Assembly: GCA_964526745.1 (NCBI GenBank) | Contig: CAZGMQ010000004.1 | Span: 518-64,517 of the forward strand | Length of the DNA stretch: 64,000 nt | Source: an uncultured Verrucomicrobiota bacterium | GTDB lineage: Bacteria > Verrucomicrobiota > Kiritimatiellia > CAIQIC01 > Lenti-01 | Direction: 5' to 3' | Shown: positions 14,486 to 57,909 of the stretch, in pieces | How the letters are laid out: each line of letters begins with the position of its first letter | Numbering within the stretch: position 1 is the stretch's first letter | The notes under the pieces: model-generated | The model's database searches: none | Told to the model about the DNA's origin: nothing | Seen by the model: the letters and a program-made list of their open reading frames with translations, nothing else | Program-made: the position numbers and the translations under genes

Positions 14486-14516
14486 TTGACAAGAAGGGGG
14501 GGGGGAGCAGATGATT
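14486..14516 (+). promoter_or_regulatory. Probable ppdK promoter with a G10 homopolymer in the spacer
   Basis: TTGACA 14486-14491; GGGGGGGGGG 14496-14505; best -10 candidate GATGAT 14510-14515 (18-bp spacer). Confidence 0.55.
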
Positions 14517-14600
14517 GCGCGAATTTTCCACCCCGGAGTGGTGTGGCTGCGATTTAAAACAACGGGCCCGAAAGGGTCGAACAAAAACACGGAGATGACC

Positions 14601-17348
14601 ATGGCGAAAAAGAAGTATGTCTATTTTTATGGCTTCGGCAAAGAGAACACCGAAGGGGATGCCTCCATGAAGGCGATTCTGGGTGGAAAGGGTGCGAACC
14701 TGGCTGAAATGGCCAATGCCAATCTGCCCGTGCCTCCGGGATTCACGATTTCGACAGAAGCCTGTGCGTACTACGCGTCGCACAACAGCAAATACCCGAT
14801 GGGGATGAAAGATCAGCTCACGACTCAGTTGAAGAGGCTGGAAACCAAGTTGGGCAAAAAGTTGGGCGACCCGAAGAATCCTTTGCTGGTTTCCGTGCGT
14901 TCTGGCGCCGCCGTTTCCATGCCGGGTATGATGGACACCGTCTTGAACCTTGGTTTGAACGACAAGTCCATTCTTGGTTTTATTGAGAGCACCGGCAATG
15001 AGCGTACCGGTTGGGACTGCTATCGCCGTTTCATCGATATGTTCGGTAACGTGGTCATGGGCCCGACGACCGGTCTGAGCCATGATGACTTCGAAGAAGC
15101 GATGACCGAGCTGAAAAAGAAATATCGTGCGAAGGAAGACAATGACCTGACCGCCGAACAGCTCAAGGAGCTGTGCGAGATCTATAAGAAGGTCTATGTC
15201 AAGAAGGTGAAGAAGCCTTTCCCGCAGGATCCGATTGAGCAGTTGACGGCTTCCGTCGACGCCGTGTTCGGCAGCTGGAACAGCGAACGCGCTGAGAAGT
15301 ACCGCCAGATCAACAAGGTCACCGGTCTTCTCGGTACCGCGGTGAACGTCTGCACTATGGTCTTTGGTAACATGGGCGAAGAGTCCGGCACGGGCGTGGC
15401 TTTCACGCGTGATGGCGCTACCGGTTCCGTTGAGCCGATGGGTGAATATCTGATCGATGCGCAGGGTGAAGATGTGGTGGCGGGGATCCGCACGCCGAAG
15501 CACATTGATGAAATGCCGAAAGAGAAGAGCCCGGTGTGGAAGAAAGCCCACACGAAGCTTCTCTTGATCATGCGCAAGCTCGAAGCCCACTACAAGTATC
15601 CGCAGGATGTGGAGTTCACCGTTGAGCAAGGCACTCTCTGGATGCTGCAGACCCGTAACGCGAAACGTACCGGTCTGGCCGGCGTTCGCTGGGCCGTCGA
15701 AATGGCCACCGGTAAGGATTTCGTCACGGGCAAGTCTCAGAAGAAGATTCTGACCGCCAGTGAAGCCCTGGGCACTGTAATGGGCTCGGATCTCGAACAG
15801 TTGCTGTTCCCGATCTTCGATGTCGCCGTGGAGAAGAAGGCCAAGCCGTTTACCAAGGGTCTGCCGGCCGGTCCGGGCGCGGGCGTTGGCAAAATTGTCT
15901 TCGACGCCGCCACGGCTGAGAAGATCATTAAGGATAAGCCGGCTGAGAAGCTGATTCTCGTTCGTCATGAAACCAGCCCCGAAGATGTCGGTGGCATGTG
16001 GGCGGCGCAGGGGATTCTGACCAGCACCGGCGGCATGACCTCCCACGCGGCGGTTGTGGCTCGCGGCTGGGGCAAGTGCTGCATCGCGGGTGCCGGCGAC
16101 CTGGATATCAACTACAAGAAGAAAACGATCTCCGCCAACGGCAAGGTGCTGAAGGAAGGCGACTGGATCAGCTTGAACGGTTCGACCGGTGTGGTCTATG
16201 AAGGCCAGATCCCGACCGAAGCCAGCCCGGTGGTTGCCGCCGTGGTTGGGGGCAAGAAAGCCGCTCAGAAGCATCCTATCTATAAGATGTACAAGCAGAT
16301 CAGCGATTGGTCCGACAAGTTCCGCAAAATTGCGGTCCGTACCAACGCCGACAGCCCGAAGGATGCCAAGGCCGCCCGCGCGTTTGGTGCCCAGGGAATC
16401 GGCTTATGCCGAACCGAGCATATGTTCTTCGAAGGCGAGCGCATCTGGCCCGTCCGCGAGTTCATTCTTGCGGAAGACCTGAAGGCTCGTGAGAAGGCTT
16501 TGACCAAGCTCCTGCCTCTACAGCGGAGTGACTTCGAAGGTATCTTCAAGGCCATGGACGGCTATGGTGTGACGATTCGTCTTATCGATCCGCCTCTGCA
16601 TGAGTTTGTGCCGCATGATGCCGCCGGTATGGCGGAGATGGCTAAGCGCATGAAGACCAAGGTCTCTGTGGTGTCCGCCCGCGTGAAGAAGCTCCACGAG
16701 TTCAACCCCATGCTCGGTCATCGCGGTTGCCGTCTCTCCATCACCTATCCGGAATTGTGTGTCATGCAGACTCGCGCGATCATCGAAGCGGCCTGCAATG
16801 TCCTCAAGACTGGCCGCAAGGTGCTGCCTGAGATCATGGTCCCGCTGATCGGAACCAAGGCGGAACTCGACTTCCTCGCGGCGATCATCCGCAAGACGGC
16901 CGATGAGATCATCAAGGCCAAGAAGTCCAAGCTCAAGTACATGGTCGGTACCATGATTGAGATTCCCCGTGCGGCCCTGACGGCCGATGCGGTGGCTGAA
17001 TCGGCTGACTTCTTCAGCTTCGGTACCAATGACCTGACCCAGATGACCTTCGGATACAGCCGTGACGATATCGGCTCCTTCCTTCCGGATTATCTGGATC
17101 AGAAGATTCTGCCGGTGGATCCGTTCCTCCAGTTGGACGTCACCGGTGTGGGCCAGTTGGTGGAAATGGCGGTCAAGAAGGGCCGTGCCACCCGTCCCGG
17201 TCTCAAGTGCGGCATCTGCGGCGAACACGGTGGCGATCCTGCTTCCGTCAAGTTCTGCTGCAAAGTCGGCCTGAACTACGTGAGCTGCTCGCCGTACCGC
17301 GTGCCGATCGCTCGTTTGGCCGCCGCACAGGCTGCCCTCGGCGTATAA
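14601..17348 (+). CDS. ppdK: Pyruvate, phosphate dikinase
   Basis: LGGKGANLAEM, LLVSVRSGA, phospho-His motif GGMTSHAAVVARG, GIGLCRTEHMF, FSFGTNDLTQ, GICGEHGGDP; likely start MAKKKYVYF at 14601. Confidence 0.98.
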   Translation: MAKKKYVYFYGFGKENTEGDASMKAILGGKGANLAEMANANLPVPPGFTISTEACAYYASHNSKYPMGMKDQLTTQLKRLETKLGKKLGDPKNPLLVSVRSGAAVSMPGMMDTVLNLGLNDKSILGFIESTGNERTGWDCYRRFIDMFGNVVMGPTTGLSHDDFEEAMTELKKKYRAKEDNDLTAEQLKELCEIYKKVYVKKVKKPFPQDPIEQLTASVDAVFGSWNSERAEKYRQINKVTGLLGTAVNVCTMVFGNMGEESGTGVAFTRDGATGSVEPMGEYLIDAQGEDVVAGIRTPKHIDEMPKEKSPVWKKAHTKLLLIMRKLEAHYKYPQDVEFTVEQGTLWMLQTRNAKRTGLAGVRWAVEMATGKDFVTGKSQKKILTASEALGTVMGSDLEQLLFPIFDVAVEKKAKPFTKGLPAGPGAGVGKIVFDAATAEKIIKDKPAEKLILVRHETSPEDVGGMWAAQGILTSTGGMTSHAAVVARGWGKCCIAGAGDLDINYKKKTISANGKVLKEGDWISLNGSTGVVYEGQIPTEASPVVAAVVGGKKAAQKHPIYKMYKQISDWSDKFRKIAVRTNADSPKDAKAARAFGAQGIGLCRTEHMFFEGERIWPVREFILAEDLKAREKALTKLLPLQRSDFEGIFKAMDGYGVTIRLIDPPLHEFVPHDAAGMAEMAKRMKTKVSVVSARVKKLHEFNPMLGHRGCRLSITYPELCVMQTRAIIEAACNVLKTGRKVLPEIMVPLIGTKAELDFLAAIIRKTADEIIKAKKSKLKYMVGTMIEIPRAALTADAVAESADFFSFGTNDLTQMTFGYSRDDIGSFLPDYLDQKILPVDPFLQLDVTGVGQLVEMAVKKGRATRPGLKCGICGEHGGDPASVKFCCKVGLNYVSCSPYRVPIARLAAAQAALGV

Positions 17349-30602: not shown

Positions 30603-31862
30603 ATGTCTCAAGAACCCCAGAATCAGGTCATGGAATGGCTGGAAAACAAGCGCGTGCAAAAGGATTGTGACTGCGAATCACTCTCGCGCCTGTCCCCGCC
30701 GGGAATCACGGGCCTGGCCAGGCAGTTTCATCGCCAACTGGACGGATATCGGATGAGTCCCCTGAAGGGTCTGTCCGGTCTGGCTTCCATGCTTGGGGTG
30801 GGGGGCATCTGGGTGAAGGATGAGTCCCAGCGTCTGAGTTTGAATTCCTTCAAGGTGCTGGGCGGCTCGTTCGCCCTGTACCAGTTTTTACGTAAGCGCC
30901 TGGGGATCCGGGACCGTGAACTGACGGTTTCGGAACTGAAGTCGGACAAGGTGCGGGCAGAGTTGGGCGAACTTATTTTTGCAACTGCGACCGATGGAAA
31001 TCACGGCCGAGGGGTCGCCTGGGCGGCCATGGAGCTGGGGTTCAAATGCGTGGTCTATGTGCATGAACGGACTACCAAATCGCGGGTCCGGGCGATTGAG
31101 GAATACGGCGCGGAAGTGAAAGTGATTGCCGGGACGTATGATGATGCCGTTCGAAAGATCACACAGGATGCGGCAGAGAATGGGTGGCAGATCATTTCGG
31201 ACACCACTTGGGAGGGCTATCAGGATATTCCCTGTTGGGTCATGCAGGGCTATACCACACTGATGAGCGAAGTGCAGGAGCAATTGTCGGCTCAGGGGAT
31301 TCTCCGGCCGACCCATGTGTTTGTGCAGGCGGGGGTGGGGGCACTGGCTGCATCGGTCATTGGATACTATCAGCGCTTGTTCAGGACGGACCGCCCGGTC
31401 ACGGTGGTGGTAGAGCCGGAGAAGGCAGCCTGCCTCTATGCCTCGGCGGAAAAGGGCGACGGCCTGCCGCATTCGGTTGGCGGCACCCTCGACACGATCA
31501 TGGCTGGACTGGCCTGTGGGGACCCGAGTCCGTTTGCATGGGACATTCTGGACAAGACCAGTGACTTCTTCCTGTCCTGCCCTGACTTTGTCGCGGCCAA
31601 GGGAATGCGGGTATATGGCATGCCCGTTGCCGGAGATCCCTTCATTGTGTCCGGTGAGTCCGGGGCCGTGACCCTCGGCGCGCTGATGTTCATACTGGAT
31701 ACTCCGGGCCTGACCGATCTGAAGGAGCGGATGAAACTGGGCCCCGATTCCCAGATCCTGCTGATCAATACCGAGGGCAATACCGATCCAGAGGACTTCC
31801 GTCGCATTGTCTGGGAAGGCGGCAACTCGGTTCCTCACGAATTCCGATACCATCCTGCCTGA
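30603..31862 (+). CDS. dpaL: Diaminopropionate ammonia-lyase (PLP)
   Basis: WVKDESQRLSLNSFKVLGG (PLP Lys), ATDGNHGRGVAW, ISDTTWEGY, QAGVGALA, MAGLACG, SGESGA. Confidence 0.92.
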   Translation: MSQEPQNQVMEWLENKRVQKDCDCESLSRLSPPGITGLARQFHRQLDGYRMSPLKGLSGLASMLGVGGIWVKDESQRLSLNSFKVLGGSFALYQFLRKRLGIRDRELTVSELKSDKVRAELGELIFATATDGNHGRGVAWAAMELGFKCVVYVHERTTKSRVRAIEEYGAEVKVIAGTYDDAVRKITQDAAENGWQIISDTTWEGYQDIPCWVMQGYTTLMSEVQEQLSAQGILRPTHVFVQAGVGALAASVIGYYQRLFRTDRPVTVVVEPEKAACLYASAEKGDGLPHSVGGTLDTIMAGLACGDPSPFAWDILDKTSDFFLSCPDFVAAKGMRVYGMPVAGDPFIVSGESGAVTLGALMFILDTPGLTDLKERMKLGPDSQILLINTEGNTDPEDFRRIVWEGGNSVPHEFRYHPA

Positions 31863-49725: not shown

Positions 49726-50151
49726 ATGAAGACGATGAAATGGATCGGATGGTGCGGTGTGCTGTTGTTGGTGTCGAGTCTGATGTGGACGACTGGTTGC
49801 GGGAGTGACGGGGATGATGGCGATACCGTTGTGGTAACCAATTCGGTTACACCTCAGGCTTTGGTGGCACCGCAACTGGTGACGCCGGATAACAACAAGT
49901 CGTATAACTCATGGGGTGGAGTGCCTGTGGATGTGGGCTTTGAGTGGACTGCCGTACCCGGGGCTGTTTCTTATGTGGTTGAACTCAACGGGGCGCAGCA
50001 GTCGGTGTCGGCGACGACTTTGGTCAAGTCTCTCACGGGCGATGTCTATCAGTGGAGGGTCTGGGGGAAGGACTCCAGCGGAGCCAGCGGCCCGCCGAGT
50101 TCCACGTTCACGGTGACAGTTGTGGACGCAATCGGCCCGCCGCCCCCGTAA
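49726..50151 (+). CDS. Lipoprotein with FN3/Ig-like beta-sandwich (paralogue 1)
   Basis: Lipobox LMWTTGC, Asp/Gly/Thr linker, FEWTAVPGAVSYVVELNG...YQWRVWG; AAGGAG RBS. Confidence 0.8.
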   Translation: MKTMKWIGWCGVLLLVSSLMWTTGCGSDGDDGDTVVVTNSVTPQALVAPQLVTPDNNKSYNSWGGVPVDVGFEWTAVPGAVSYVVELNGAQQSVSATTLVKSLTGDVYQWRVWGKDSSGASGPPSSTFTVTVVDAIGPPPP

Positions 50152-50331: not shown

Positions 50332-50805
50332 ATGAAAACGACGAGCAAGGTGGGATGGATCAGCGTGGTACTGTTGAGTGCGGTTTGTTTGTGGACCACA
50401 GGCTGCGGTGGTGGTGATGGCGATCCCGGCAGCGACACCACAACGGTAGTTACCAATACGGTTGGAGGGACCACAACAGTGGTGACCAATGCCCCGGCTA
50501 CTCCGCCGGCCCAGCAACTGGTGGAGCCGCAGGTGATTTCGCCTCAGAGCGGTCTGGAGCTCTATTCGGGGAACCCGACACTCGGTGTGGAGTTTCATTG
50601 GACGGCGGTCCCGGGTGCCGTGGGCTACGTGCTGTCGGTGGATGGGATGCAATATGATGTGTCCTCCACCAAGACATCCTTGCGGCTGCCGGTGGGGATT
50701 CATACCTGGAGTGTCTGTGGCGTAATCTCCCGAACGGCCGGCAACGGGCCGTCTAGCAGTCAGGCCACGTTTGCCGTTCAGCCGATCGGCTTAGTCTTTC
50801 CCTGA
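50332..50805 (+). CDS. Lipoprotein with FN3/Ig-like beta-sandwich (paralogue 2)
   Basis: Lipobox CLWTTGC, Thr-rich linker, FHWTAVPGAVGYVLSVDG...HTWSVCG; AAGGAG RBS. Confidence 0.8.
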   Translation: MKTTSKVGWISVVLLSAVCLWTTGCGGGDGDPGSDTTTVVTNTVGGTTTVVTNAPATPPAQQLVEPQVISPQSGLELYSGNPTLGVEFHWTAVPGAVGYVLSVDGMQYDVSSTKTSLRLPVGIHTWSVCGVISRTAGNGPSSSQATFAVQPIGLVFP

Positions 50806-50871: not shown

Positions 50872-50881
50872 AGGCGGGCAC

Positions 50882-50910
50882 AAAAAACGCCGCCCGTTGC
50901 GGGGCGGCGT
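50882..50910 (-). terminator. Intrinsic terminator after ygeW
   Basis: ACGCCGCCC/GGGCGGCGT stem with A6 on the + strand (T6 on the - strand). Confidence 0.85.
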
Positions 50911-50932
50911 CGGAATCAACCGGAAGGGCTGA

Positions 50933-52351
50933 CTATTTCTTCTTGGCCTTCTTGACGATCTTCTTCGCGACCTTCTTTACTGGCTTCTTTGCGACTTTCT
51001 TAGCGGGCTTCTTGACCGCTTTCTTCACAACCTTTTTGGCTGCTTTTTTCGCAGGGGCCTTCTTCACAGCCTTTTTCGCCGTTTTCTTTGCCGGAGCCTT
51101 CTTCGCGACCTTCTTCTTGGCCTTCTTGACGACCTTCTTGGCGGCCTTCGGGGCGGGGACGGAGACATCCAGCACGCGTTCCATCGGATAGTCCATCAGT
51201 TCGGCGATGGTGCCGACGACGTCGGGCATCCGGTTGGTGAGCATCATGGAGGCGATGACGAAGGGCTTGTAACCGGCTTCCTTGTAGGTCGGAATGCGGT
51301 ACTTCTCAAAGACCTTGGCGGAGACTTCGCCGGCCTTGCAGGAGATGTCGGTGATGTCGGCGGGCAGGCAATGCATATACAGGGCCTTGCCCTTCTTCGT
51401 CAGCTTCATCTTCTTCTCGTCGCATTCCCAGTTTTTGTACTTGGCATTCTGCTTGAGACAGGATGCCTCCAGCTTCTTCAGACCGGCCTGATTGTTGGCG
51501 TTCAGCAGGTCGGTGCGCTTCTGCATGACCTGATAGGAAGCCCAGGACTTCGGATAGACAATGTCGGCATCCTTGAACGCGGCCGCCATGGAGGAAACCT
51601 GCTTGAAGGATCCGCCGCTGGCCTTGGCCTGCTTGCGAGCCAGCTTGACCACATCCGGGATGAGATCATACCCCGGCGGGTGGGCGAGCGTGACATCCAT
51701 GCCGAAGCGGGTCATCAGACCGATGATGCCCTGCGGGACGGAGAGAGGCTTGCCATAGGACGGGCTGTAGGCCCAGGTCATGGCGATCTTCTTGCCCTTG
51801 AGGGCTTCCAGGGAACCAAAGTGTTCCTTGAGCCAGCACAGGTCGGCCATGCTCTGGGTGGGATGGTCAATATCGCACTGCAGATTGATCACGCCGGGAC
51901 GCTGGGGCAGGACACCTTCTTTATGTCCGTCATCGAGGGCTTCGGCGACTTCGGTCATGTAGGTGTGGCCAGCGCCAAGATACATGTCATCGCGGATGCC
52001 GACGATCTGGGACAGGAAGGAGATCATATTCGCCGTTTCACGGACGGTTTCGCCGTGAGCGACCTGCGACTTGCTTTCGTCCAGATCCTGGACGGCCAGA
52101 CCGAGGAGGTTGGCGGCCGAGGCGAACGAGAAGCGGGTGCGGGTGGAGTTGTCGCGGAAGTTGGAGATCGCCAGGCCCGAGTCAAAGACGCGCAGGGAGA
52201 TATTCTGCCCATAGAGAGTCTTCAGCAGCTCAGCGACCTGGAGCACGAGTTTCAGTTCATCGGCGGACTTATCCCACGTCAGCAGGAAATCTTTTCCGTA
52301 GAGGCTGACCTTCAGCTTGCGGATGGATTTGAGCATATCAACAGCGTTCAT
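50933..52351 (-). CDS. ygeW: Knotted carbamoyltransferase YgeW with C-terminal Lys/Ala/Val-rich tail
   Basis: KDFLLTW, FRDNSTRTRFSFASA, HGETVRETANMIS, NLQCDIDHPTQ, WAYSPSYGKPLSVPQG, YMHCLPAD, YKEAGYKP; then a 74-aa xxKK repeat tail. Confidence 0.92.
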   Translation of the reverse strand: MNAVDMLKSIRKLKVSLYGKDFLLTWDKSADELKLVLQVAELLKTLYGQNISLRVFDSGLAISNFRDNSTRTRFSFASAANLLGLAVQDLDESKSQVAHGETVRETANMISFLSQIVGIRDDMYLGAGHTYMTEVAEALDDGHKEGVLPQRPGVINLQCDIDHPTQSMADLCWLKEHFGSLEALKGKKIAMTWAYSPSYGKPLSVPQGIIGLMTRFGMDVTLAHPPGYDLIPDVVKLARKQAKASGGSFKQVSSMAAAFKDADIVYPKSWASYQVMQKRTDLLNANNQAGLKKLEASCLKQNAKYKNWECDEKKMKLTKKGKALYMHCLPADITDISCKAGEVSAKVFEKYRIPTYKEAGYKPFVIASMMLTNRMPDVVGTIAELMDYPMERVLDVSVPAPKAAKKVVKKAKKKVAKKAPAKKTAKKAVKKAPAKKAAKKVVKKAVKKPAKKVAKKPVKKVAKKIVKKAKKK

Positions 52352-52404: not shown

Positions 52405-52432
52405 ATGCTACCAAAGCGCGGGAAAGTGGCAA
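52405..52432 (-). promoter_or_regulatory. Probable sigma70 promoter of ygeW
   Basis: Minus strand TTGCCA (52432-52427), 16-bp spacer, TAGCAT (52410-52405). Confidence 0.6.
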
Positions 52433-52481: not shown

Positions 52482-53663
52482 TTACAGCTTTTCAAGATCG
52501 GCCTGTTCCCGCAGCTGAATCAGCGCCGCGATCTTGGGGACATACATGCGGGTTTCCGCGGGCAGCTTGTGGTGGATATCGGCAAAGGTTGTCCCGTTGG
52601 TTTTCCGGAGGGTTTTCGAGAGCCGTCCCTCGCCGCAGTTATAGGCGGCCAGCGCCAGGGGCCAGCTGTGGAAGCGTCCATGGAGGCGCTTGAGATACTG
52701 GGCGGCCGCGCGGGCATTTTTATAGGCATCCAGACGTTCGTCTTTCGGGGTGAGGCGGAGACCGAACGATTTAGCGGTGGCCGGCATGAACTGGTAGAGG
52801 CCCGCCGCGCCCACGGGGCTGCGGGCGGCCGGATTAAATGTGGATTCGGCTTCCGCCTGCCAGACGAGTTCTGTGGGAACGCCCTCGGAGCGGAAGATCT
52901 GTTTCAACGTCGGCAGCATGGCCGGGGCCCGGGCGGGGACGGGGCGCCCTTTCAGTTTGCGGAGCCAGGACTGTTTGTTTTCTGCATAGAGGGTGGGGGC
53001 CTTCGATTGAACGGATGGATTAACCTCTACAGGAGGAGCCGGCGGGGGTGTCTTGGGATGCGGCGGCAGTTTTCCGACCGTCGGCAGTGTTTTGGGATGA
53101 GGTGGCAACGGTTTCTGGGGCGTCTTGGGGTGAGGCGGCAGAGGCTGTTGAGGCGTCTTGGGGTGAGGCGGCAGAGGCTGTTGAGGCGTCTTGGGATGAG
53201 GCGGCAAATTAGGCTTGGACGTCGGATGCGGCGGCAGGGGGGACGTGGACGGGGCCGTGGTCGTCGGTTTTTTCGATGCGGTCGGGAGCCTTCGCTGTTC
53301 TTCTTCGGCCATTTCAAAGAAATCCATTCGGGCCTCCAGCCAGTCGGCGTAGCCCTGTGTTTTCGGATCCGCCCGCAACTGGGCCAGCGTGGCTTTGGCC
53401 TGAGGTGCAACCGCGGCCAACTCTGTCAGACTTTCGCCGGCCAGTGCCTGCTGCATAGGGGCAACCAGTTCATTCAGCTCCTCGGCGGATACAAATTCAT
53501 ATTCTTCTTGGACCGATGCTGGAGCCATCCGTTCGAAAATTTCCTGTCCAGCTTCTGATATCTGCTCGGTATCCAGCTCCCATTCGTCGAGGAAAGCCGA
53601 AGCCGGCCTCGCAGAAAGAAGGACGAGGAATGGTAGAATCCAGATGAGGCGATTCGAGGACAT
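52482..53663 (-). CDS. Lytic transglycosylase (SLT/MltD-like, no LysM) with Pro-rich repeat linker
   Basis: Signal-like N-terminus (MSSNRLIWILPFLVLL), LPPHPK repeats, AEAESTFNP, AAGLYQFMPATA, LAAYNCGEG, ETRMYVPK. Confidence 0.9.
   Translation of the reverse strand: MSSNRLIWILPFLVLLSARPASAFLDEWELDTEQISEAGQEIFERMAPASVQEEYEFVSAEELNELVAPMQQALAGESLTELAAVAPQAKATLAQLRADPKTQGYADWLEARMDFFEMAEEEQRRLPTASKKPTTTAPSTSPLPPHPTSKPNLPPHPKTPQQPLPPHPKTPQQPLPPHPKTPQKPLPPHPKTLPTVGKLPPHPKTPPPAPPVEVNPSVQSKAPTLYAENKQSWLRKLKGRPVPARAPAMLPTLKQIFRSEGVPTELVWQAEAESTFNPAARSPVGAAGLYQFMPATAKSFGLRLTPKDERLDAYKNARAAAQYLKRLHGRFHSWPLALAAYNCGEGRLSKTLRKTNGTTFADIHHKLPAETRMYVPKIAALIQLREQADLEKL
53050..53245 (-). repeat. Intragenic 33-bp (11-aa) tandem repeat encoding LPPHPK units
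   Basis: GGCGTCTTGGGGTGAGGCGGCAGAGGCTGTTGA is perfectly duplicated at 53119-53184, with degenerate flanking copies; six LPPHP cores in the protein. Confidence 0.9.
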
Positions 53664-53664
53664 A

Positions 53665-54111
53665 TCAATAGGGAAGACGATACCCCGGACCCAGGGAGAA
53701 TGCATTTTCAATATGACGGATGACGGGATTTTTATCCCCGGGTTGTCCGACCACTTCTACCACATCGAACCGGATATGCGCCGGTTTGGCCTTGATCCGG
53801 TTCAGGTACCGGGCGGCCGCCCGGCCCAGAGACCGCCGTTTGTGGCGGTCCACGGCTGCCATCGGCCGGCCATAGTTTTCACTCCGGCGCGTTTTGACTT
53901 CCACAAACACCAGCACATCCGGGGCCGGGGAGCGGACCACCAAATCCAGCTCACAACGGGAGCCAAAGCGGACATTTTGTCCCAGGAGTTTATATCCCTT
54001 TTTCCGCAGTAGGTCGGCCGCCCGGGTTTCGCCCCAGGCGCCGATGCGCTGGGCTTCGGTGCGGGGACCTGTTGAGGTGCGGAACAGGCTGAATGGCCAG
54101 GGGAGCTTCAT
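53665..54111 (-). CDS. YraN family (UPF0102) endonuclease-like protein
   Basis: GAWGETRA, ELDLV, LVFVEVKTR, RFDVVEV; downstream of rnhB. Confidence 0.9.
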   Translation of the reverse strand: MKLPWPFSLFRTSTGPRTEAQRIGAWGETRAADLLRKKGYKLLGQNVRFGSRCELDLVVRSPAPDVLVFVEVKTRRSENYGRPMAAVDRHKRRSLGRAAARYLNRIKAKPAHIRFDVVEVVGQPGDKNPVIRHIENAFSLGPGYRLPY

Positions 54112-54113
54112 CT

Positions 54114-54749
54114 TCAGAACTGCAGGGTACGCTGGGCAACCGGCGCAAAGCTTTTGCGATGAATGGGACAGGGGCCCAGCCGCTGCAGGGCCTCCATATG
54201 GATCTGTGTGCCATATCCTTTGTGGCGTTCGAATCCATAGCCGGGATAGGTGGCCGCCATCTCCACCATCAGGCGGTCGCGCGTTACCTTGGCGATGACG
54301 CTGGCGGCGGCAATGGAGAGGCTGGCTGCATCGCCGCGGACAATGGCCTGATGCGGTACGGGCAGGCCCTTCACAGGGAGTCCATCCACCAGAGCCAGCT
54401 CCGGCAGGGAGGGCAGGGCTTCCAGCGCCCGGCGCATGCCCAGATGGGTGGCCCGCAAAATATTAATGGAATCGATTTCCTCGACGGAGGCGCTTCCGAT
54501 GCCGATTTGTGCATGGGGGCACTCCATGAGAAGGGCATAAAAAAACTCCCGGCGTTTGGCGGAGAGTTTTTTCGAATCGGTCAGCCCGTCGAGGGACTCG
54601 TTCGCTTCGGCTTTCAGAAAGGTTTTCTCAAAGACAACGGCTGAAGAAACAACAGGGCCGGCGAGCGGTCCGCGACCAGCTTCGTCGACCCCTGCGACGC
54701 GCGTGGCGCCGCTGTTCCAGACTTCCTGCTCATGTAGGAGCAAGGACAC
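54114..54749 (-). CDS. rnhB: Ribonuclease HII
   Basis: GVDEAGRGPLAGPV, DSKKL, INILRAT, VDG, GDA..SIAAASVIAKVTRD, HKGYGT. Confidence 0.97.
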   Translation of the reverse strand: MSLLLHEQEVWNSGATRVAGVDEAGRGPLAGPVVSSAVVFEKTFLKAEANESLDGLTDSKKLSAKRREFFYALLMECPHAQIGIGSASVEEIDSINILRATHLGMRRALEALPSLPELALVDGLPVKGLPVPHQAIVRGDAASLSIAAASVIAKVTRDRLMVEMAATYPGYGFERHKGYGTQIHMEALQRLGPCPIHRKSFAPVAQRTLQF

Positions 54750-54759
54750 AGGCTGGTCT

Positions 54760-55110
54760 CTACCTGCGGCGCTCTTTCAGGCGGCCTTTTTTGCCGGTGA
54801 GTTCGCGGAGGTAATACAGCTTCGCACGACGGATGGTCGCACTGCGTTCCACTTCCACCTTCGTCACGTAGGGGGAATGGACCGGGAATACACGTTCGAC
54901 GCCTTCGCCATAGGAAATACGGCGGACGGTGAAGGTCTCATTGGAGCTGCCGCCATCACGGGCGATCACGATACCGGCATAGACCTGCACGCGCTCTTTT
55001 TCGCCTTCTTTGATCTTCACATGGACGCGCACGGAATCACCCACATCGAATTCGGGAGGGGTTTCCTTGAGCTGGCTTTGTTCAACTTTTTCCAAAAGGG
55101 CAGTTTTCAT
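54760..55110 (-). CDS. rplS: 50S ribosomal protein L19
   Basis: FDVGDSVRVH, ETFTVRRISYGEGVERVFP, RRAKLYYLR. Confidence 0.99.
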   Translation of the reverse strand: MKTALLEKVEQSQLKETPPEFDVGDSVRVHVKIKEGEKERVQVYAGIVIARDGGSSNETFTVRRISYGEGVERVFPVHSPYVTKVEVERSATIRRAKLYYLRELTGKKGRLKERRR

Positions 55111-56351: not shown

Positions 56352-57686
56352 CTAGCGGGAGGAACGGCGCTTGGGTCCAGTGGGGGAACCGAAGGAGCGG
56401 GTCCCGCCGCCTGAATTCCGACCGCCCGGCTTGGCCCGGTGACCGCCGGCAGCACCCCGTCCGCCAGCCGGCCGCTGGGCCGGTTTTACGGCGGGCTTTC
56501 CGCCTGCTTTGGCCCGGGTCCCGCGGGACGGCCGTGGTTGCCGCACCGCTTTGGGCTCCGATTTCGCCACATAGGTGAAGCCGTCAATTTTGCGCCGTTC
56601 AATCTTGAACTTCAGCACGCGCTCAATGGCGCGCACGGTACTTTCGTCATCGTGCGTCATGAAGGTGAAGGCATCGCCGGTCTTGGCGGCCCGCCCGGTC
56701 CGACCGATGCGATGGGTGTAGTCATCCACGGTGGCGGGCATATCAAAATTGATGACATGGGAGATGTCAGAGACATCGATGCCGCGGGCGGCCAGATCGG
56801 TGGCCACCAGGACTTGGATTTCACCGGATTTGAAGCGGTCCAGTGCATTCTGTCGCTGGCGCTGCGAGAGGTTCCCCTGCAGGCTTGTGGCGCGATAGCC
56901 CGCCGTGACCAGTTGTACAGCGAGACGTTTGGCGCGATGTTTGGTGCGGGTGAACACCAGCACAGAACGGTTGTCGATTTGTCCCAGAATGGTCTGAAGC
57001 ATATTGGTTTTGCTGGTCTGGTTTACGGGATAGAGTGCGTGATCTACGGTTTCCGCCGGCTTGGAATGGGCGATCTGGACAATCACCGGTTTGTGCAGGA
57101 TCTCATCGATCAGATAGCGCAGTTCATTCGGCATTGTGGCGGAGAACAGCAGGATCTGGCGCTTGGCAGGCATGCGGTGCAGAATCTTGCGGATATCGGG
57201 AAGGAAACCCATGTCGAACATGCGGTCGGCTTCGTCCAGGACCAGCACTTCCACGTCATTCAAGTTGAACTTTCCCTGGCCCAGCAGATCCAGCAGGCGT
57301 CCGGGACAGGCAATCGCCAGCTCGGCGCCTCGGCGGACACCCTGTATTTGCGGGCTGGCGCCCACGCCACCGTAAATGGTGACGCAGCGTAGGCGGGTTC
57401 GATCGCCCAGCTTATTGAAGACGTCCTTGGTCTGCTCTGCCAGCTCACGGGTGGGGCCGACAATCAGCGTACGCAGCTTGTGTCGGGGGCCGTTCATCAG
57501 GCGCTCGAGCACCGGCAGGATGAAGGCCGCGGTTTTACCCGTGCCGGTCTGGGCCAGGCCAACGACATCGCGTCCCTCGAGAATGGGCGGAATGGCTTTC
57601 TTCTGGATGGGGGTGGATACGGTGTAGCCCTGATCCTGAATATTTTTCTGGAGCTGAGGGTTTAGGTCTATGGTATGAAAAGGCAT
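56352..57686 (-). CDS. DEAD-box RNA helicase (RhlE-like) with basic Gly/Arg tail
   Basis: Start MPFHTIDL at 57686; Q motif, AQTGTGKT, PTRELA, LDEADRM, SAT, HRIGRTGRA. Confidence 0.96.
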   Translation of the reverse strand: MPFHTIDLNPQLQKNIQDQGYTVSTPIQKKAIPPILEGRDVVGLAQTGTGKTAAFILPVLERLMNGPRHKLRTLIVGPTRELAEQTKDVFNKLGDRTRLRCVTIYGGVGASPQIQGVRRGAELAIACPGRLLDLLGQGKFNLNDVEVLVLDEADRMFDMGFLPDIRKILHRMPAKRQILLFSATMPNELRYLIDEILHKPVIVQIAHSKPAETVDHALYPVNQTSKTNMLQTILGQIDNRSVLVFTRTKHRAKRLAVQLVTAGYRATSLQGNLSQRQRQNALDRFKSGEIQVLVATDLAARGIDVSDISHVINFDMPATVDDYTHRIGRTGRAAKTGDAFTFMTHDDESTVRAIERVLKFKIERRKIDGFTYVAKSEPKAVRQPRPSRGTRAKAGGKPAVKPAQRPAGGRGAAGGHRAKPGGRNSGGGTRSFGSPTGPKRRSSR

Positions 57687-57909
57687 GGGGGGAATCTCCG
57701 GTGGCAAACGACAAACGGTGGCCGTTTGCAGCGCCAACGGGCTGCCTGACCACTGCGCCCGGCGCGCAGGGAAGCGCTGGAAACAATAGTTGAACACGGC
57801 CACCCCTTCGAGCCCTGCAATAAATGGGGGGAGGCTCATTGCGCCTTTCGGGCAACGGAAGACGCACCCTACAGCACCCCGGTGGGCTTGTCCAGCCCTG
57901 TGAATGTGT

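What the first reader, a model, noticed from the sequence alone, without database searches (positions are those of the whole stretch)
50933..51157. YgeW carbamoyltransferase fused to a histone-H1-like tail (74 aa, 37 Lys, no acidic residues)
Seen: after the normal YgeW C-terminus the frame continues PAPKAAKKVVKKAKKKVAKKAPAKK...KKIVKKAKKK, built from xxKK tetrapeptides, and ends before a clear terminator. Known: such tails bind or condense DNA in mycobacterial HupB and Ku, Pseudomonas AlgP and chlamydial Hc2. Aspartate/ornithine carbamoyltransferase-family enzymes are oligomers, so several tails would be displayed together. Inference: a metabolic enzyme that may moonlight as a nucleoid-, RNA- or polyphosphate-binding protein, or be targeted to a condensate or compartment. 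I do not know of this fusion being described.
Basis: partly seen in the sequence, partly recalled or inferred. Interest (0 to 1): 0.72.

Follow-up and report, generated by a model that had tools for sequence, protein, structure and literature searches.

The report
Lysine-rich tail on YgeW carbamoyltransferase
A purine-breakdown enzyme (YgeW) in one group of anaerobic Kiritimatiellae-type bacteria carries a conserved, disordered, very positively charged tail like those of DNA-packaging proteins, which suggests, without proving, that the enzyme is tethered to DNA, RNA, polyphosphate or membrane.

Summary
ORF 50933..52351 (-) encodes 472 aa. Residues 5-393 are a full-length YgeW knotted carbamoyltransferase (NCBIfam E=7.8e-207; 70% identical to E. 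coli YgeW, PDB 3Q98). Residues 399-472 are 37 K, 18 A, 11 V, 6 P, 1 T, 1 I, in 16 xxKK and 2 APAKK units, followed by a strong terminator.

It is not a chimera. All 120 best database homologues, from independent assemblies, carry such a tail (33-76 aa, about 40% K, usually ending KKAKRK). Tailed proteins form one clade of Kiritimatiellae/Verrucomicrobiota MAGs. YgeW from Lentisphaerae GWF2, Bacteroidota, Holophagaceae, Ignavibacteria and Fibrobacter has no tail.

The tail is predicted disordered, varies in length between close strains (49-74 aa), and appears to be under purifying selection (dN/dS about 0.1).

New here: all 13 untailed ygeW loci sit beside carbamate kinase, YgeY, YgeX or Xdh genes. 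The 18 tailed loci (305 kb) have none nearby; the gene stands alone after rplS-rnhB-yraN-slt where upstream flank is held. In this window ygeW has the strongest codon bias of about 50 genes.

Function is untested. The best reading is a multivalent polyanion-binding tether on a still-catalytic trimer. I found no prior description. It is a new variant of a known kind.

The parts
50933..52351 (-). Complete ygeW gene (472 aa): knotted carbamoyltransferase core plus polycationic tail
   Evidence: ORF list. NCBIfam NF005538 YgeW equivalog, E=7.8e-207, 687 bits against a cutoff of 453, aa 5-393 covering profile positions 6-395 of 396. Pfam OTCace_N and OTCace.
51158..52351 (-). Catalytic core, aa 1-398
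   Evidence: Aligns with E. coli YgeW (PDB 3Q98) over aa 5-393, E=8e-186, 70% identity. The carbamoyl-phosphate motifs STRTR 69-73, HPTQ 163-166 and HCLP 327-330 are invariant in 30 tailed homologues. Core dN/dS is 0.05-0.08.
51158..51190 (-). Junction, aa 388-398 (YPMERVLDVSV), conserved only in the tailed clade
   Evidence: R392 and D395 are invariant; P389, E391 and V396 are nearly invariant among tailed homologues. Untailed YgeW ends differently here.
50936..51157 (-). Polycationic tail, aa 399-472, net charge +37, predicted disordered
   Evidence: Composition and unit parsing. AlphaFold2 gives pLDDT below 50 and no secondary structure for 389-472. DNA tandem periodicity of 12, 24 and 39 nt. 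Conserved in 120 of 120 top homologues. Tail dN/dS about 0.1.
50933..50935 (-). Stop codon (TAG)
   Evidence: Sequence read.
50876..50911 (-). Intrinsic terminator (stem-loop 50911..50886 plus T-run)
   Evidence: Terminator scan: 10 pairs, 8 of them G-C, followed by TTTTTTG.
52405..52432 (-). Sigma-70-like promoter candidate upstream of ygeW
   Evidence: TTGCCA, 16-nt spacer, TAGCAT with a TG extension, 9 of 12 matches. Weak evidence only.
52482..55110 (-). Conserved upstream neighbours slt, yraN (UPF0102), rnhB, rplS
   Evidence: Pfam. The same order occurs upstream of tailed ygeW in L031, L033, L034 and L035; L036 and L032 hold part of it.
30603..31862 (+). YgeX-type diaminopropionate ammonia-lyase, the only pathway partner found in the window, about 19 kb away
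   Evidence: NCBIfam NF006058, E=7e-155, 515 bits against a cutoff of 276.

Best explanation
The gene encodes a catalytically intact YgeW. In E. coli this enzyme phosphorolytically cleaves a ureido group of 2,3-diureidopropionate to give carbamoyl phosphate, which carbamate kinase turns into ATP. In one Kiritimatiellae-type clade it has acquired a selected, intrinsically disordered polycationic C-terminal tail: +37 here, and typically about +22. YgeW is a homotrimer and its last helix lies on the convex face. Three tails would therefore project from the face opposite the active sites and act as a multivalent electrostatic tether to cellular polyanions. Nucleoid DNA or RNA is the most likely target and polyphosphate is possible. 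This would concentrate or immobilise an abundant enzyme on that matrix while catalysis continues. Shown: the sequence, clade-wide conservation, apparent purifying selection, predicted disorder, loss of operon context and strong codon bias. Inferred: the trimer geometry (from the E. coli structure), polyanion binding, localisation and retained substrate.
For: The core is orthodox YgeW with all carbamoyl-phosphate motifs and very low dN/dS. The tail is present in all 120 top homologues, at 33-76 aa, about 40% K, almost no D or E, commonly ending KKAKRK. Every tailed protein has net positive total charge, from +2 to +45. Tailed proteins form a single clade in a neighbour-joining tree; the sister Lentisphaerae GWF2 protein and all YgeW from other phyla are untailed. 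Tail length is 49-74 aa within one 90%-identity cluster, with conserved ends and DNA periods of 12, 24 and 39 nt. Charge and composition are what is kept, not sequence. Tail dN/dS is about 0.1, while tail dN is 3-4 times that of the core. AlphaFold2 predicts disorder. In the window plus L001-L011, only YgeW carries such a tail in a plausible gene, so it is not a proteome-wide habit in the sequence sampled. Tailed ygeW stands alone: 18 loci (305 kb) have no carbamate kinase, YgeY, Xdh or UacX, whereas 13 of 13 untailed loci have at least one such partner. It has the highest CAI (0.761, against 0.739 for EF-Tu) and the lowest Nc among the 13 genes tested (35.1) in the window, which suggests an abundant protein. 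Precedents: K/A/P-rich tails bind DNA in Ku and Hlp (PMC3553676), and the K/A/P-rich AlgP localises to polyphosphate granules and needs its tail to space them evenly (PMC9239181). The trimer and the convex-face C-terminal helix are described in PMC4581275.
Against: There is no binding, localisation or expression data of any kind. The tail matches no known DNA-binding family. No nucleoid, RNA or polyphosphate gene is linked to it. Short stretches have a high alpha-helical hydrophobic moment (0.79 for an 11-mer), which fits membrane binding equally well. Similar tails occur on unrelated enzymes in metagenomes, for example a RidA/L-PSP protein, so a generic physico-chemical role is possible. One untailed protein (L012) nests within the tailed clade in the tree, so the tail may be dispensable. 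The codon-bias indices rest on a small reference set. Dispersal of pathway genes may be a general trait of PVC genomes and not specific to this gene.
Confidence: 0.45

Rival explanations
1. Enzyme-intrinsic role. The tail tunes the enzyme itself. It could keep trimers apart at the convex face, as the extra C-terminal helix of putrescine transcarbamylase prevents larger oligomers. It could attract anionic substrates and products (phosphate, diureidopropionate, carbamoyl phosphate). Or it could recruit an acidic partner such as carbamate kinase, which is no longer encoded next door.
For: The PTCase C-terminal extension stabilises the trimer and blocks hexamer formation (PMC3282769). The YgeW terminal helices cover the same helix 1 (PMC4581275). 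Phosphorolysis by YgeW is thermodynamically unfavourable, and carbamate kinase stimulates it. Carbamate kinase is adjacent to untailed ygeW in L012, L013 and L020 but absent from all tailed loci. Most tailed cores are acidic (median -8), so tail-core or tail-partner electrostatics are plausible.
Against: A 33-76-aa tail with 40-50% Lys is far more than a shielding helix or a steering patch needs. Its length varies freely between close strains. No partner has been identified.
Confidence: 0.2
2. Peripheral membrane anchor. Segments of the tail fold into cationic amphipathic helices on anionic phospholipids and hold the enzyme at the inner membrane, for example near a transporter.
For: The hydrophobic moment at 100 degrees is 0.79 for the best 11-mer and 0.67 for the best 18-mer; V, I and A alternate with KK.
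Against: The periodicity peaks at 90 degrees, not 100, so the apolar stripe winds around a long helix. Six prolines interrupt it. The apolar residues are mostly Ala. AlphaFold2 predicts no helix. No transporter is linked.
Confidence: 0.12
3. Lysine-chemistry role. The tail lysines are themselves targets. They could act as a local sink for cyanate or carbamoyl phosphate (carbamoylation to homocitrulline), or as sites of acylation that switch the charge and thereby localisation or activity.
For: The enzyme makes or uses carbamoyl phosphate beside 37 exposed lysines. This is inference only.
Against: A stoichiometric sink is inefficient. Nothing here tests it.
Confidence: 0.05
4. Nearly neutral low-complexity expansion. 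A read-through extension grew by replication slippage and persists without a specific function.
For: DNA tandem periods of 12, 24 and 39 nt, and rapid gain and loss of xxKK units between strains. One untailed relative sits inside the clade.
Against: The tail is retained in 120 of 120 top homologues across about 25% core divergence. Charge is kept strictly, with almost no acidic residues. The end motifs are conserved and dN/dS is about 0.1. A longer chain must also pass through the trefoil knot, which argues that the tail carries a cost that must be paid for (PMC4581275).
Confidence: 0.08
5. Artefact: an assembly chimera, a lost stop codon or a wrong frame.
For: None, beyond two of the 120 homologues that have frameshifted tails (P0085, P0103), which look like sequencing errors.
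Against: The junction is identical in hundreds of independent contigs from five or more sources. A terminator follows the tail stop codon. Codon usage matches the body of the gene.
Confidence: 0.01

Closest known systems
E. coli YgeW / YTCase (PDB 3Q98), knotted catabolic transcarbamylase of anaerobic urate degradation
   Same: The core is 70% identical over 389 residues and matches the full length of the NCBIfam equivalog. The SxRT, HPxQ and HxLP motifs are present.
   Different: E. coli YgeW ends at ...QERV(K), has net charge -13 over the aligned region, and lies in the ygeW-ygeX-ygeY/yqeA cluster. The window protein adds 74 residues (+37), has a basic core (+7 over the same region), and stands alone behind rplS-rnhB-yraN-slt.
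PAKKA-type lysine-rich tails of mycobacterial Hlp/HupB and M. smegmatis Ku
   Same: A C-terminal, disordered, fast-evolving low-complexity region rich in K, A and P, with APAKK, PAKK and PVKK units (PMC3553676).
   Different: Those tails extend proteins that already bind DNA. Here the host is a metabolic enzyme. V is much more common and K reaches 50%. No homology is detectable.
AlgP / PhaF KPAA-repeat domains (Pseudomonas)
   Same: A histone-H1-like composition. Those tails help position storage granules: polyphosphate granules for AlgP, and, as proposed, PHA granules tethered to the nucleoid by PhaF (PMC9239181). This is the kind of localisation role proposed here.
   Different: No KPAA unit is present. 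The K fraction here is about twice as high. AlgP and PhaF are not enzymes.
Putrescine transcarbamylase C-terminal helix 13
   Same: The only previously characterised C-terminal extension in the transcarbamylase family. It is likewise on a catabolic, ATP-yielding enzyme and likewise sits over helix 1 at the convex face (PMC3282769, PMC4581275).
   Different: It is a folded 20-25-residue amphipathic helix with a hydrophobic signature, not a 33-76-residue polycationic disordered tail.
Lysine-rich appended domains of aminoacyl-tRNA synthetases (for example NCBIfam PRK14900 ValRS C-terminus; eukaryotic LysRS N-terminal domain)
   Same: An enzyme plus a K-rich nucleic-acid-binding appendage. The tail weakly matches the last ~90 positions (951-1039 of 1044) of the PRK14900 ValRS model (E=5.8e-5).
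   Different: Those enzymes have a nucleic-acid substrate. YgeW has none known.

Membership tests
YgeW / YTCase knotted carbamoyltransferase | Full-length match to the curated equivalog models above their cutoff | tested here: met
   NF005538 scores 687 bits (cutoff 453) and TIGR03316 scores 628 bits (cutoff 500), covering aa 5-393.
YgeW / YTCase knotted carbamoyltransferase | Carbamoyl-phosphate binding motifs SxRT, HPxQ and HxLP | tested here: met
   STRTR 69-73, HPTQ 163-166 and HCLP 327-330 are invariant in 30 homologues. The motif definition is from PMC4581275.
YgeW / YTCase knotted carbamoyltransferase | Trefoil-knotted fold and homotrimer | not testable with these tools
   Inferred from 70% identity to 3Q98. 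The AlphaFold2 core model was poor (mean pLDDT 62, shallow alignment).
YgeW / YTCase knotted carbamoyltransferase | Genomic association with the reductive urate-degradation genes (ygeX, ygeY, hyuA, ssnA, xdhD, carbamate kinase) | tested here: inconclusive
   No partner is adjacent in 18 tailed loci, against 13 of 13 untailed loci with at least one. A YgeX equivalog does lie 19 kb away in the window. The rest of the genome was not available.
YgeW / YTCase knotted carbamoyltransferase | Phosphorolysis of 2,3-diureidopropionate to carbamoyl phosphate | not testable with these tools
   The activity is known for the E. coli enzyme only (PMC12507026; bioRxiv 10.1101/2025.04.24.650524).
Linker histone H1 / chlamydial Hc1-Hc2 | Sequence homology to the family models (for example Linker_histone, HC2) | tested here: not met
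   The tail alone gave no Pfam family at E up to 10, and no significant hit in the tail-only search (none of 8000 candidates scored E <= 0.001).
Linker histone H1 / chlamydial Hc1-Hc2 | A long K/A/P-rich disordered basic region | tested here: met
   50% K, 24% A, 8% P, no acidic residues, pLDDT below 50.
Linker histone H1 / chlamydial Hc1-Hc2 | DNA binding and condensation | not testable with these tools
   This needs EMSA or microscopy.
PAKKA-repeat tails (Hlp/HupB, Ku) | Tandem PAKKA units appended to a DNA-binding core | tested here: not met
   Only 2 APAKK units plus single PAKK and PVKK units among 18. The host domain is an enzyme with no known DNA-binding activity.
AlgP/PhaF KPAA-repeat domain | Tandem KPAA (or KPVA, KTAAA) repeats | tested here: not met
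   There is no KPAA unit in the tail sequence. The repeat definition is from PMC9239181.

The most novel reading that the evidence does not exclude
In this Kiritimatiellae clade an ATP-yielding purine-catabolic enzyme was taken out of its operon, became one of the most highly expressed proteins, and gained three histone-like tails per trimer. It would then double as a nucleoid-associated (or polyphosphate- or RNA-granule-associated) structural protein: an 'enzyme-histone' that links nitrogen and purine catabolism physically to the chromosome or to a condensate.
Probability: 0.25. Interest if true: 0.72.

Novelty: new variant of a known kind. Interest (0 to 1): 0.52.

Why it matters
Lysine-rich disordered tails are known almost only on proteins that already handle nucleic acids or storage granules. 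This one sits on a small-molecule catabolic enzyme and is conserved across a whole, mostly uncultured, clade. Its appearance coincides with the gene leaving its pathway operon and, in this window, with codon bias stronger than EF-Tu's.

If the tail tethers the enzyme to the nucleoid, polyphosphate or membrane, it would be a clean natural example of spatial organisation of bacterial metabolism by a simple electrostatic tag. It would also be a candidate abundant chromatin-associated protein in a PVC lineage.

There is a protein-folding question too. YgeW's trefoil knot already requires 124 C-terminal residues to thread through a loop (PMC4581275). If the knot forms the same way here, this tail would raise that to about 198, and the added stretch is highly charged.

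For annotation, these proteins are simply labelled "YgeW" and the tail goes unremarked.

Tried and rejected
- **Tail-only searches.** Pfam at E up to 10 and the 5.8-billion-protein search gave nothing. Composition correction removes such queries, so this says little about relatives.
- **50%-identity representative library.** The tailed clade is collapsed under an untailed 400-aa representative. The search was uninformative about spread, and none of the 150 representatives has a K tail.
- **AlphaFold2 on 30 close homologues.** The core model was poor (pLDDT 62), so I ran no fold search. I used only the low-confidence, unstructured call for the tail and relied on PDB 3Q98 for the core.
- **Gene-fusion origin.** I looked for a small H1-like gene beside untailed ygeW that could have fused. 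No K-rich ORF was found in L012-L030. Origin by read-through and slippage is more likely.
- **Lineage-wide habit of K-rich tails.** Not seen in the sampled sequence. Most of that sample is the same syntenic region, so whole proteomes still need checking.
- **Systematic basic shift of the core.** Rejected. Only the window's sub-lineage (P0001-P0003) has a basic core; the other tailed cores are acidic.
- **Metagenome scan for KKxxKKAKRK-stop.** Among the 73 matches with a true stop codon, only one was YgeW. The others were unrelated proteins and about 30-aa K/A mini-ORFs. This was useful only as context.
- **Antisense ORF 50943..51191 (+).** This Phe/Leu-rich ORF is a mirror artefact of the AAG-rich strand.
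- **Chimera or frameshift.** Rejected (see the rival explanations).
Full report
**1. The observation**

The minus-strand ORF 50933..52351 encodes 472 residues. Residues 5-393 match the curated YgeW equivalog NF005538 end to end (E=7.8e-207, 687 bits against a cutoff of 453). They also match TIGR03316 and the two Pfam transcarbamylase domains.

Against solved structures the best hit is E. coli YgeW, PDB 3Q98 (E=8e-186, aa 5-393), at 70% identity over 389 aligned residues. The E. coli protein stops where the window protein reads ...MERV. The window protein continues LDVSV and then PAPKAAKKVVKK...IVKKAKKK.

It parses into 16 xxKK tetrapeptides and 2 APAKK pentapeptides.

A 10-bp stem-loop (8 G-C pairs) with a T-run lies 22 nt after the stop codon, and a sigma-70-like site lies upstream at 52432..52405. 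A six-frame scan found no comparable tract in any plausible gene of the 64-kb window. Lys codon choice is the same in tail and body.

**2. Not an artefact, and a clade-wide trait**

All 120 best homologues (72-100% identical) are 429-472 aa long. They come from ENA, JGI, NCBI and Logan assemblies, and one of them is seen on 453 contigs. Every one carries a K/A/V/P tail.

- Measured from the conserved ...ERVLDV anchor, the tails are 33-76 aa (median 52).
- They are about 40% K and almost free of D and E.
- They usually end KKAKRK, AKKAKR or AKAKRK.
- Two of the 120 have frameshifted ends and look like sequencing errors.
- Source names, where given, are Kiritimatiellae, Kiritimatiellia or Lentisphaerae MAGs.

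In one genome per GTDB species, 11 loci labelled Verrucomicrobiota or Kiritimatiellae carry the tail (two have evidently wrong bin labels). YgeW from Lentisphaerae GWF2_57_35, Bacteroidota, Holophagaceae, Ignavibacteriota, Krumholzibacteriia and Fibrobacteraceae is 375-395 aa and untailed.

In a neighbour-joining tree of the cores, the tailed proteins form one clade with the untailed GWF2 protein as sister. One untailed protein (L012) falls inside the clade on a long branch. The tree has no support values.

**3. How the tail evolves**

- Within the window protein's own 90%-identity cluster, tails are 49, 57, 73 and 74 aa. The beginning (PAPxAAKKAKKKVAKKAP) and end (VVKKAKKK) are conserved, and whole xxKK units are gained or lost in between.
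- The DNA shows tandem periods of 12, 24 and 39 nt, as expected for slippage.
- Against the two closest relatives (P0002, P0003), core amino-acid identity is 91-94% with dN/dS of 0.05-0.08. Tail identity is 70-78%, tail dN is 3-4 times higher, and tail synonymous sites are saturated. The one computable tail dN/dS is 0.10. Alignment of low-complexity sequence is ambiguous, so this value is indicative only.
- AlphaFold2 gives residues 389-472 pLDDT below 50 and no secondary structure.
- Every tailed homologue has a net positive total charge, from +2 to +45 per subunit (median +14). The window's sub-lineage is the extreme, with core +6 to +10 and tail +31 to +37. Most tailed cores are acidic (median -8).

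Selection therefore acts on charge and composition, which is typical of a functional disordered region.

**4. Context: the main new finding**

In the window, ygeW follows rplS, rnhB, yraN (UPF0102) and an SLT transglycosylase on the same strand. It has its own terminator. Downstream lie two small lipoprotein-like genes and recN. The same rplS-rnhB-yraN-slt-ygeW order recurs in other tailed species, complete in L031 and L033-L035 and in part in L036 and L032.

I took carbamate kinase, YgeY (M20 peptidase), PALP, Xdh and UacX-like proteins from the untailed loci and identified them by Pfam. I used them as tblastn queries.

- The 18 tailed loci, including the window (305 kb in total), contain none of them.
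- All 13 untailed YgeW loci (L012, L013, L015-L025) contain at least one within the flanks.
- Carbamate kinase lies immediately downstream of ygeW in L012, L013 and L020.

The only pathway partner found on the tailed side is a YgeX-type diaminopropionate ammonia-lyase at window 30603..31862, 19 kb away (NF006058, E=7e-155). Some tailed loci have short flanks (L006, L008) and are uninformative.

ygeW also has the highest codon adaptation index of about 50 window genes. Its CAI is 0.761 (core 0.788), against 0.739 for EF-Tu, which was itself part of the reference set. It has the lowest effective number of codons among the 13 genes tested (35.1, against 39.3 for EF-Tu) and the highest GC3 (0.80). 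In L031 its Nc (36.7) is also towards the low end of the locus. This points to high expression but does not prove it.

**5. What the enzyme does elsewhere**

Two 2025 studies show that E. coli YgeW cleaves one ureido group of 2,3-diureidopropionate by phosphorolysis. The product, carbamoyl phosphate, is converted to ATP by carbamate kinase YqeA. The reaction is thermodynamically unfavourable and is stimulated by YqeA (PMC12507026; bioRxiv 10.1101/2025.04.24.650524). The two papers disagree on which ureido group is cleaved.

YTCase is a homotrimer. Its extra C-terminal helix α13 lies on helix 1 on the convex face, and the active sites face the concave side. [quoted passage not shown]

From this I infer two things. 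The three tails leave the trimer on the face opposite the active sites. And the tail would lengthen the threaded segment to about 198 residues, a plausible folding cost that selection nevertheless tolerates.

**6. Mechanism**

- **Best reading (confidence 0.45).** The tail is a multivalent electrostatic tether to polyanions, most likely nucleoid DNA or RNA and possibly polyphosphate, on an enzyme that stays catalytic. Precedents are the PAKKA tails of Ku and Hlp, which interact with DNA (PMC3553676). AlgP also localises to polyphosphate granules, and its KPAA tail is needed for their even spacing (PMC9239181).
- **Enzyme-intrinsic role (0.20).** Control of oligomerisation as in the PTCase helix 13 (PMC3282769), steering of anionic substrates, or recruitment of the no-longer-linked carbamate kinase.
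- **Membrane anchoring through short cationic amphipathic helices (0.12).** The local hydrophobic moment reaches 0.79.
- **Lysine modification or carbamoylation chemistry (0.05).**
- **Near-neutral expansion (0.08).**
- **Artefact (0.01).**

None of the functional readings is tested here.

**7. Comparison with the known, and novelty**

The protein is a member of the YgeW family by every sequence criterion I could test. The operon-association criterion is not met locally.

It is not a member of the H1, Hc2, AlgP/PhaF or PAKKA families. There is no model match, no KPAA unit and only two APAKK units. It resembles them in composition and probably in physics.

The tail weakly matches the last ~90 positions (951-1039 of 1044) of the NCBIfam ValRS model PRK14900. 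A metagenome scan found similar tails on HU (a known case) and on a RidA/L-PSP enzyme. Lysine tails on enzymes therefore exist elsewhere, but they are little studied.

Seven literature searches found no mention of a tailed YgeW or of lysine-rich tails in Kiritimatiellae.

**Verdict.** This is a real feature and a new variant of a known kind, with interest about 0.5. The score is raised by the coincidence of tail gain, operon exit and strong codon bias. It is limited by the complete lack of functional evidence.

Noticed in passing
window 30603..31862 (+): A YgeX-type diaminopropionate ammonia-lyase (NF006058, E=7e-155) lies about 19 kb from ygeW. It has no lysine tail and ordinary codon bias (CAI 0.607). 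At least two steps of the urate-to-pyruvate branch are therefore encoded, but dispersed.
   Followed up: partly
window 50933..52351 (-): ygeW has the strongest codon bias of about 50 window genes: CAI 0.761 against 0.739 for EF-Tu, Nc 35.1 and GC3 0.80. This suggests very high expression.
   Followed up: partly
L012, L013, L015-L025 versus window, L001-L011, L031-L036: Every untailed ygeW locus has carbamate kinase, YgeY, a PALP enzyme or Xdh nearby. No tailed locus does. L012, the untailed protein that nests in the tailed clade, still has carbamate kinase immediately downstream.
   Followed up: yes
P0001, P0271, P0273, P0274, P0275 (same 90% cluster): Tail length varies among near-identical strains (74, 74, 57, 73 and 49 aa), by whole xxKK units and with both ends conserved.
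   Followed up: yes
window 53092..53208 (within slt, 52482..53711, -): A 33-nt tandem repeat of 3.5 copies at 88% identity encodes PPHPKTPQQPL repeats in the N-terminal part of the SLT-domain lytic transglycosylase.
   Followed up: partly
window 49726..50151 (+) and 50332..50805 (+): Two paralogous small ORFs (36% identical, E=6e-16) have a signal-peptide and lipobox-like start (…WTTGCG) and no Pfam or NCBIfam match. They lie between recN and the ygeW terminator.
   Followed up: partly
L054 9912-9944 (+) region; L049, L050, L079, L107, L116: Metagenome contigs encode a RidA/L-PSP-family protein with a 31-aa lysine-rich tail ending KKAKRK, and HU (Bac_DNA_binding) proteins with tails of about 60 aa. 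Lysine tails therefore occur on other small-molecule enzymes too.
   Followed up: partly
L089, L105, L099, L064, L040, L090: Free-standing ORFs of about 30 aa consist only of K, A, V and T (for example MAKKKAAKKKVAKKTTKKKTAKKKTAKKAKRK) and recur on unrelated metagenome contigs. Whether they are genes is unknown.
   Followed up: no
window 14511..17348 (+) and 56352..57839 (-): The pyruvate phosphate dikinase ORF as called is unusually basic (net +25, pI 9.2), though a mis-called start is possible. The RhlE-like DEAD-box helicase has pI 10.5.
   Followed up: no
P0085, P0103: Two of the 120 homologues have tails that switch to another frame (R/P-rich or truncated). These are probably sequencing or assembly frameshifts in the repetitive tail DNA.
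   Followed up: no
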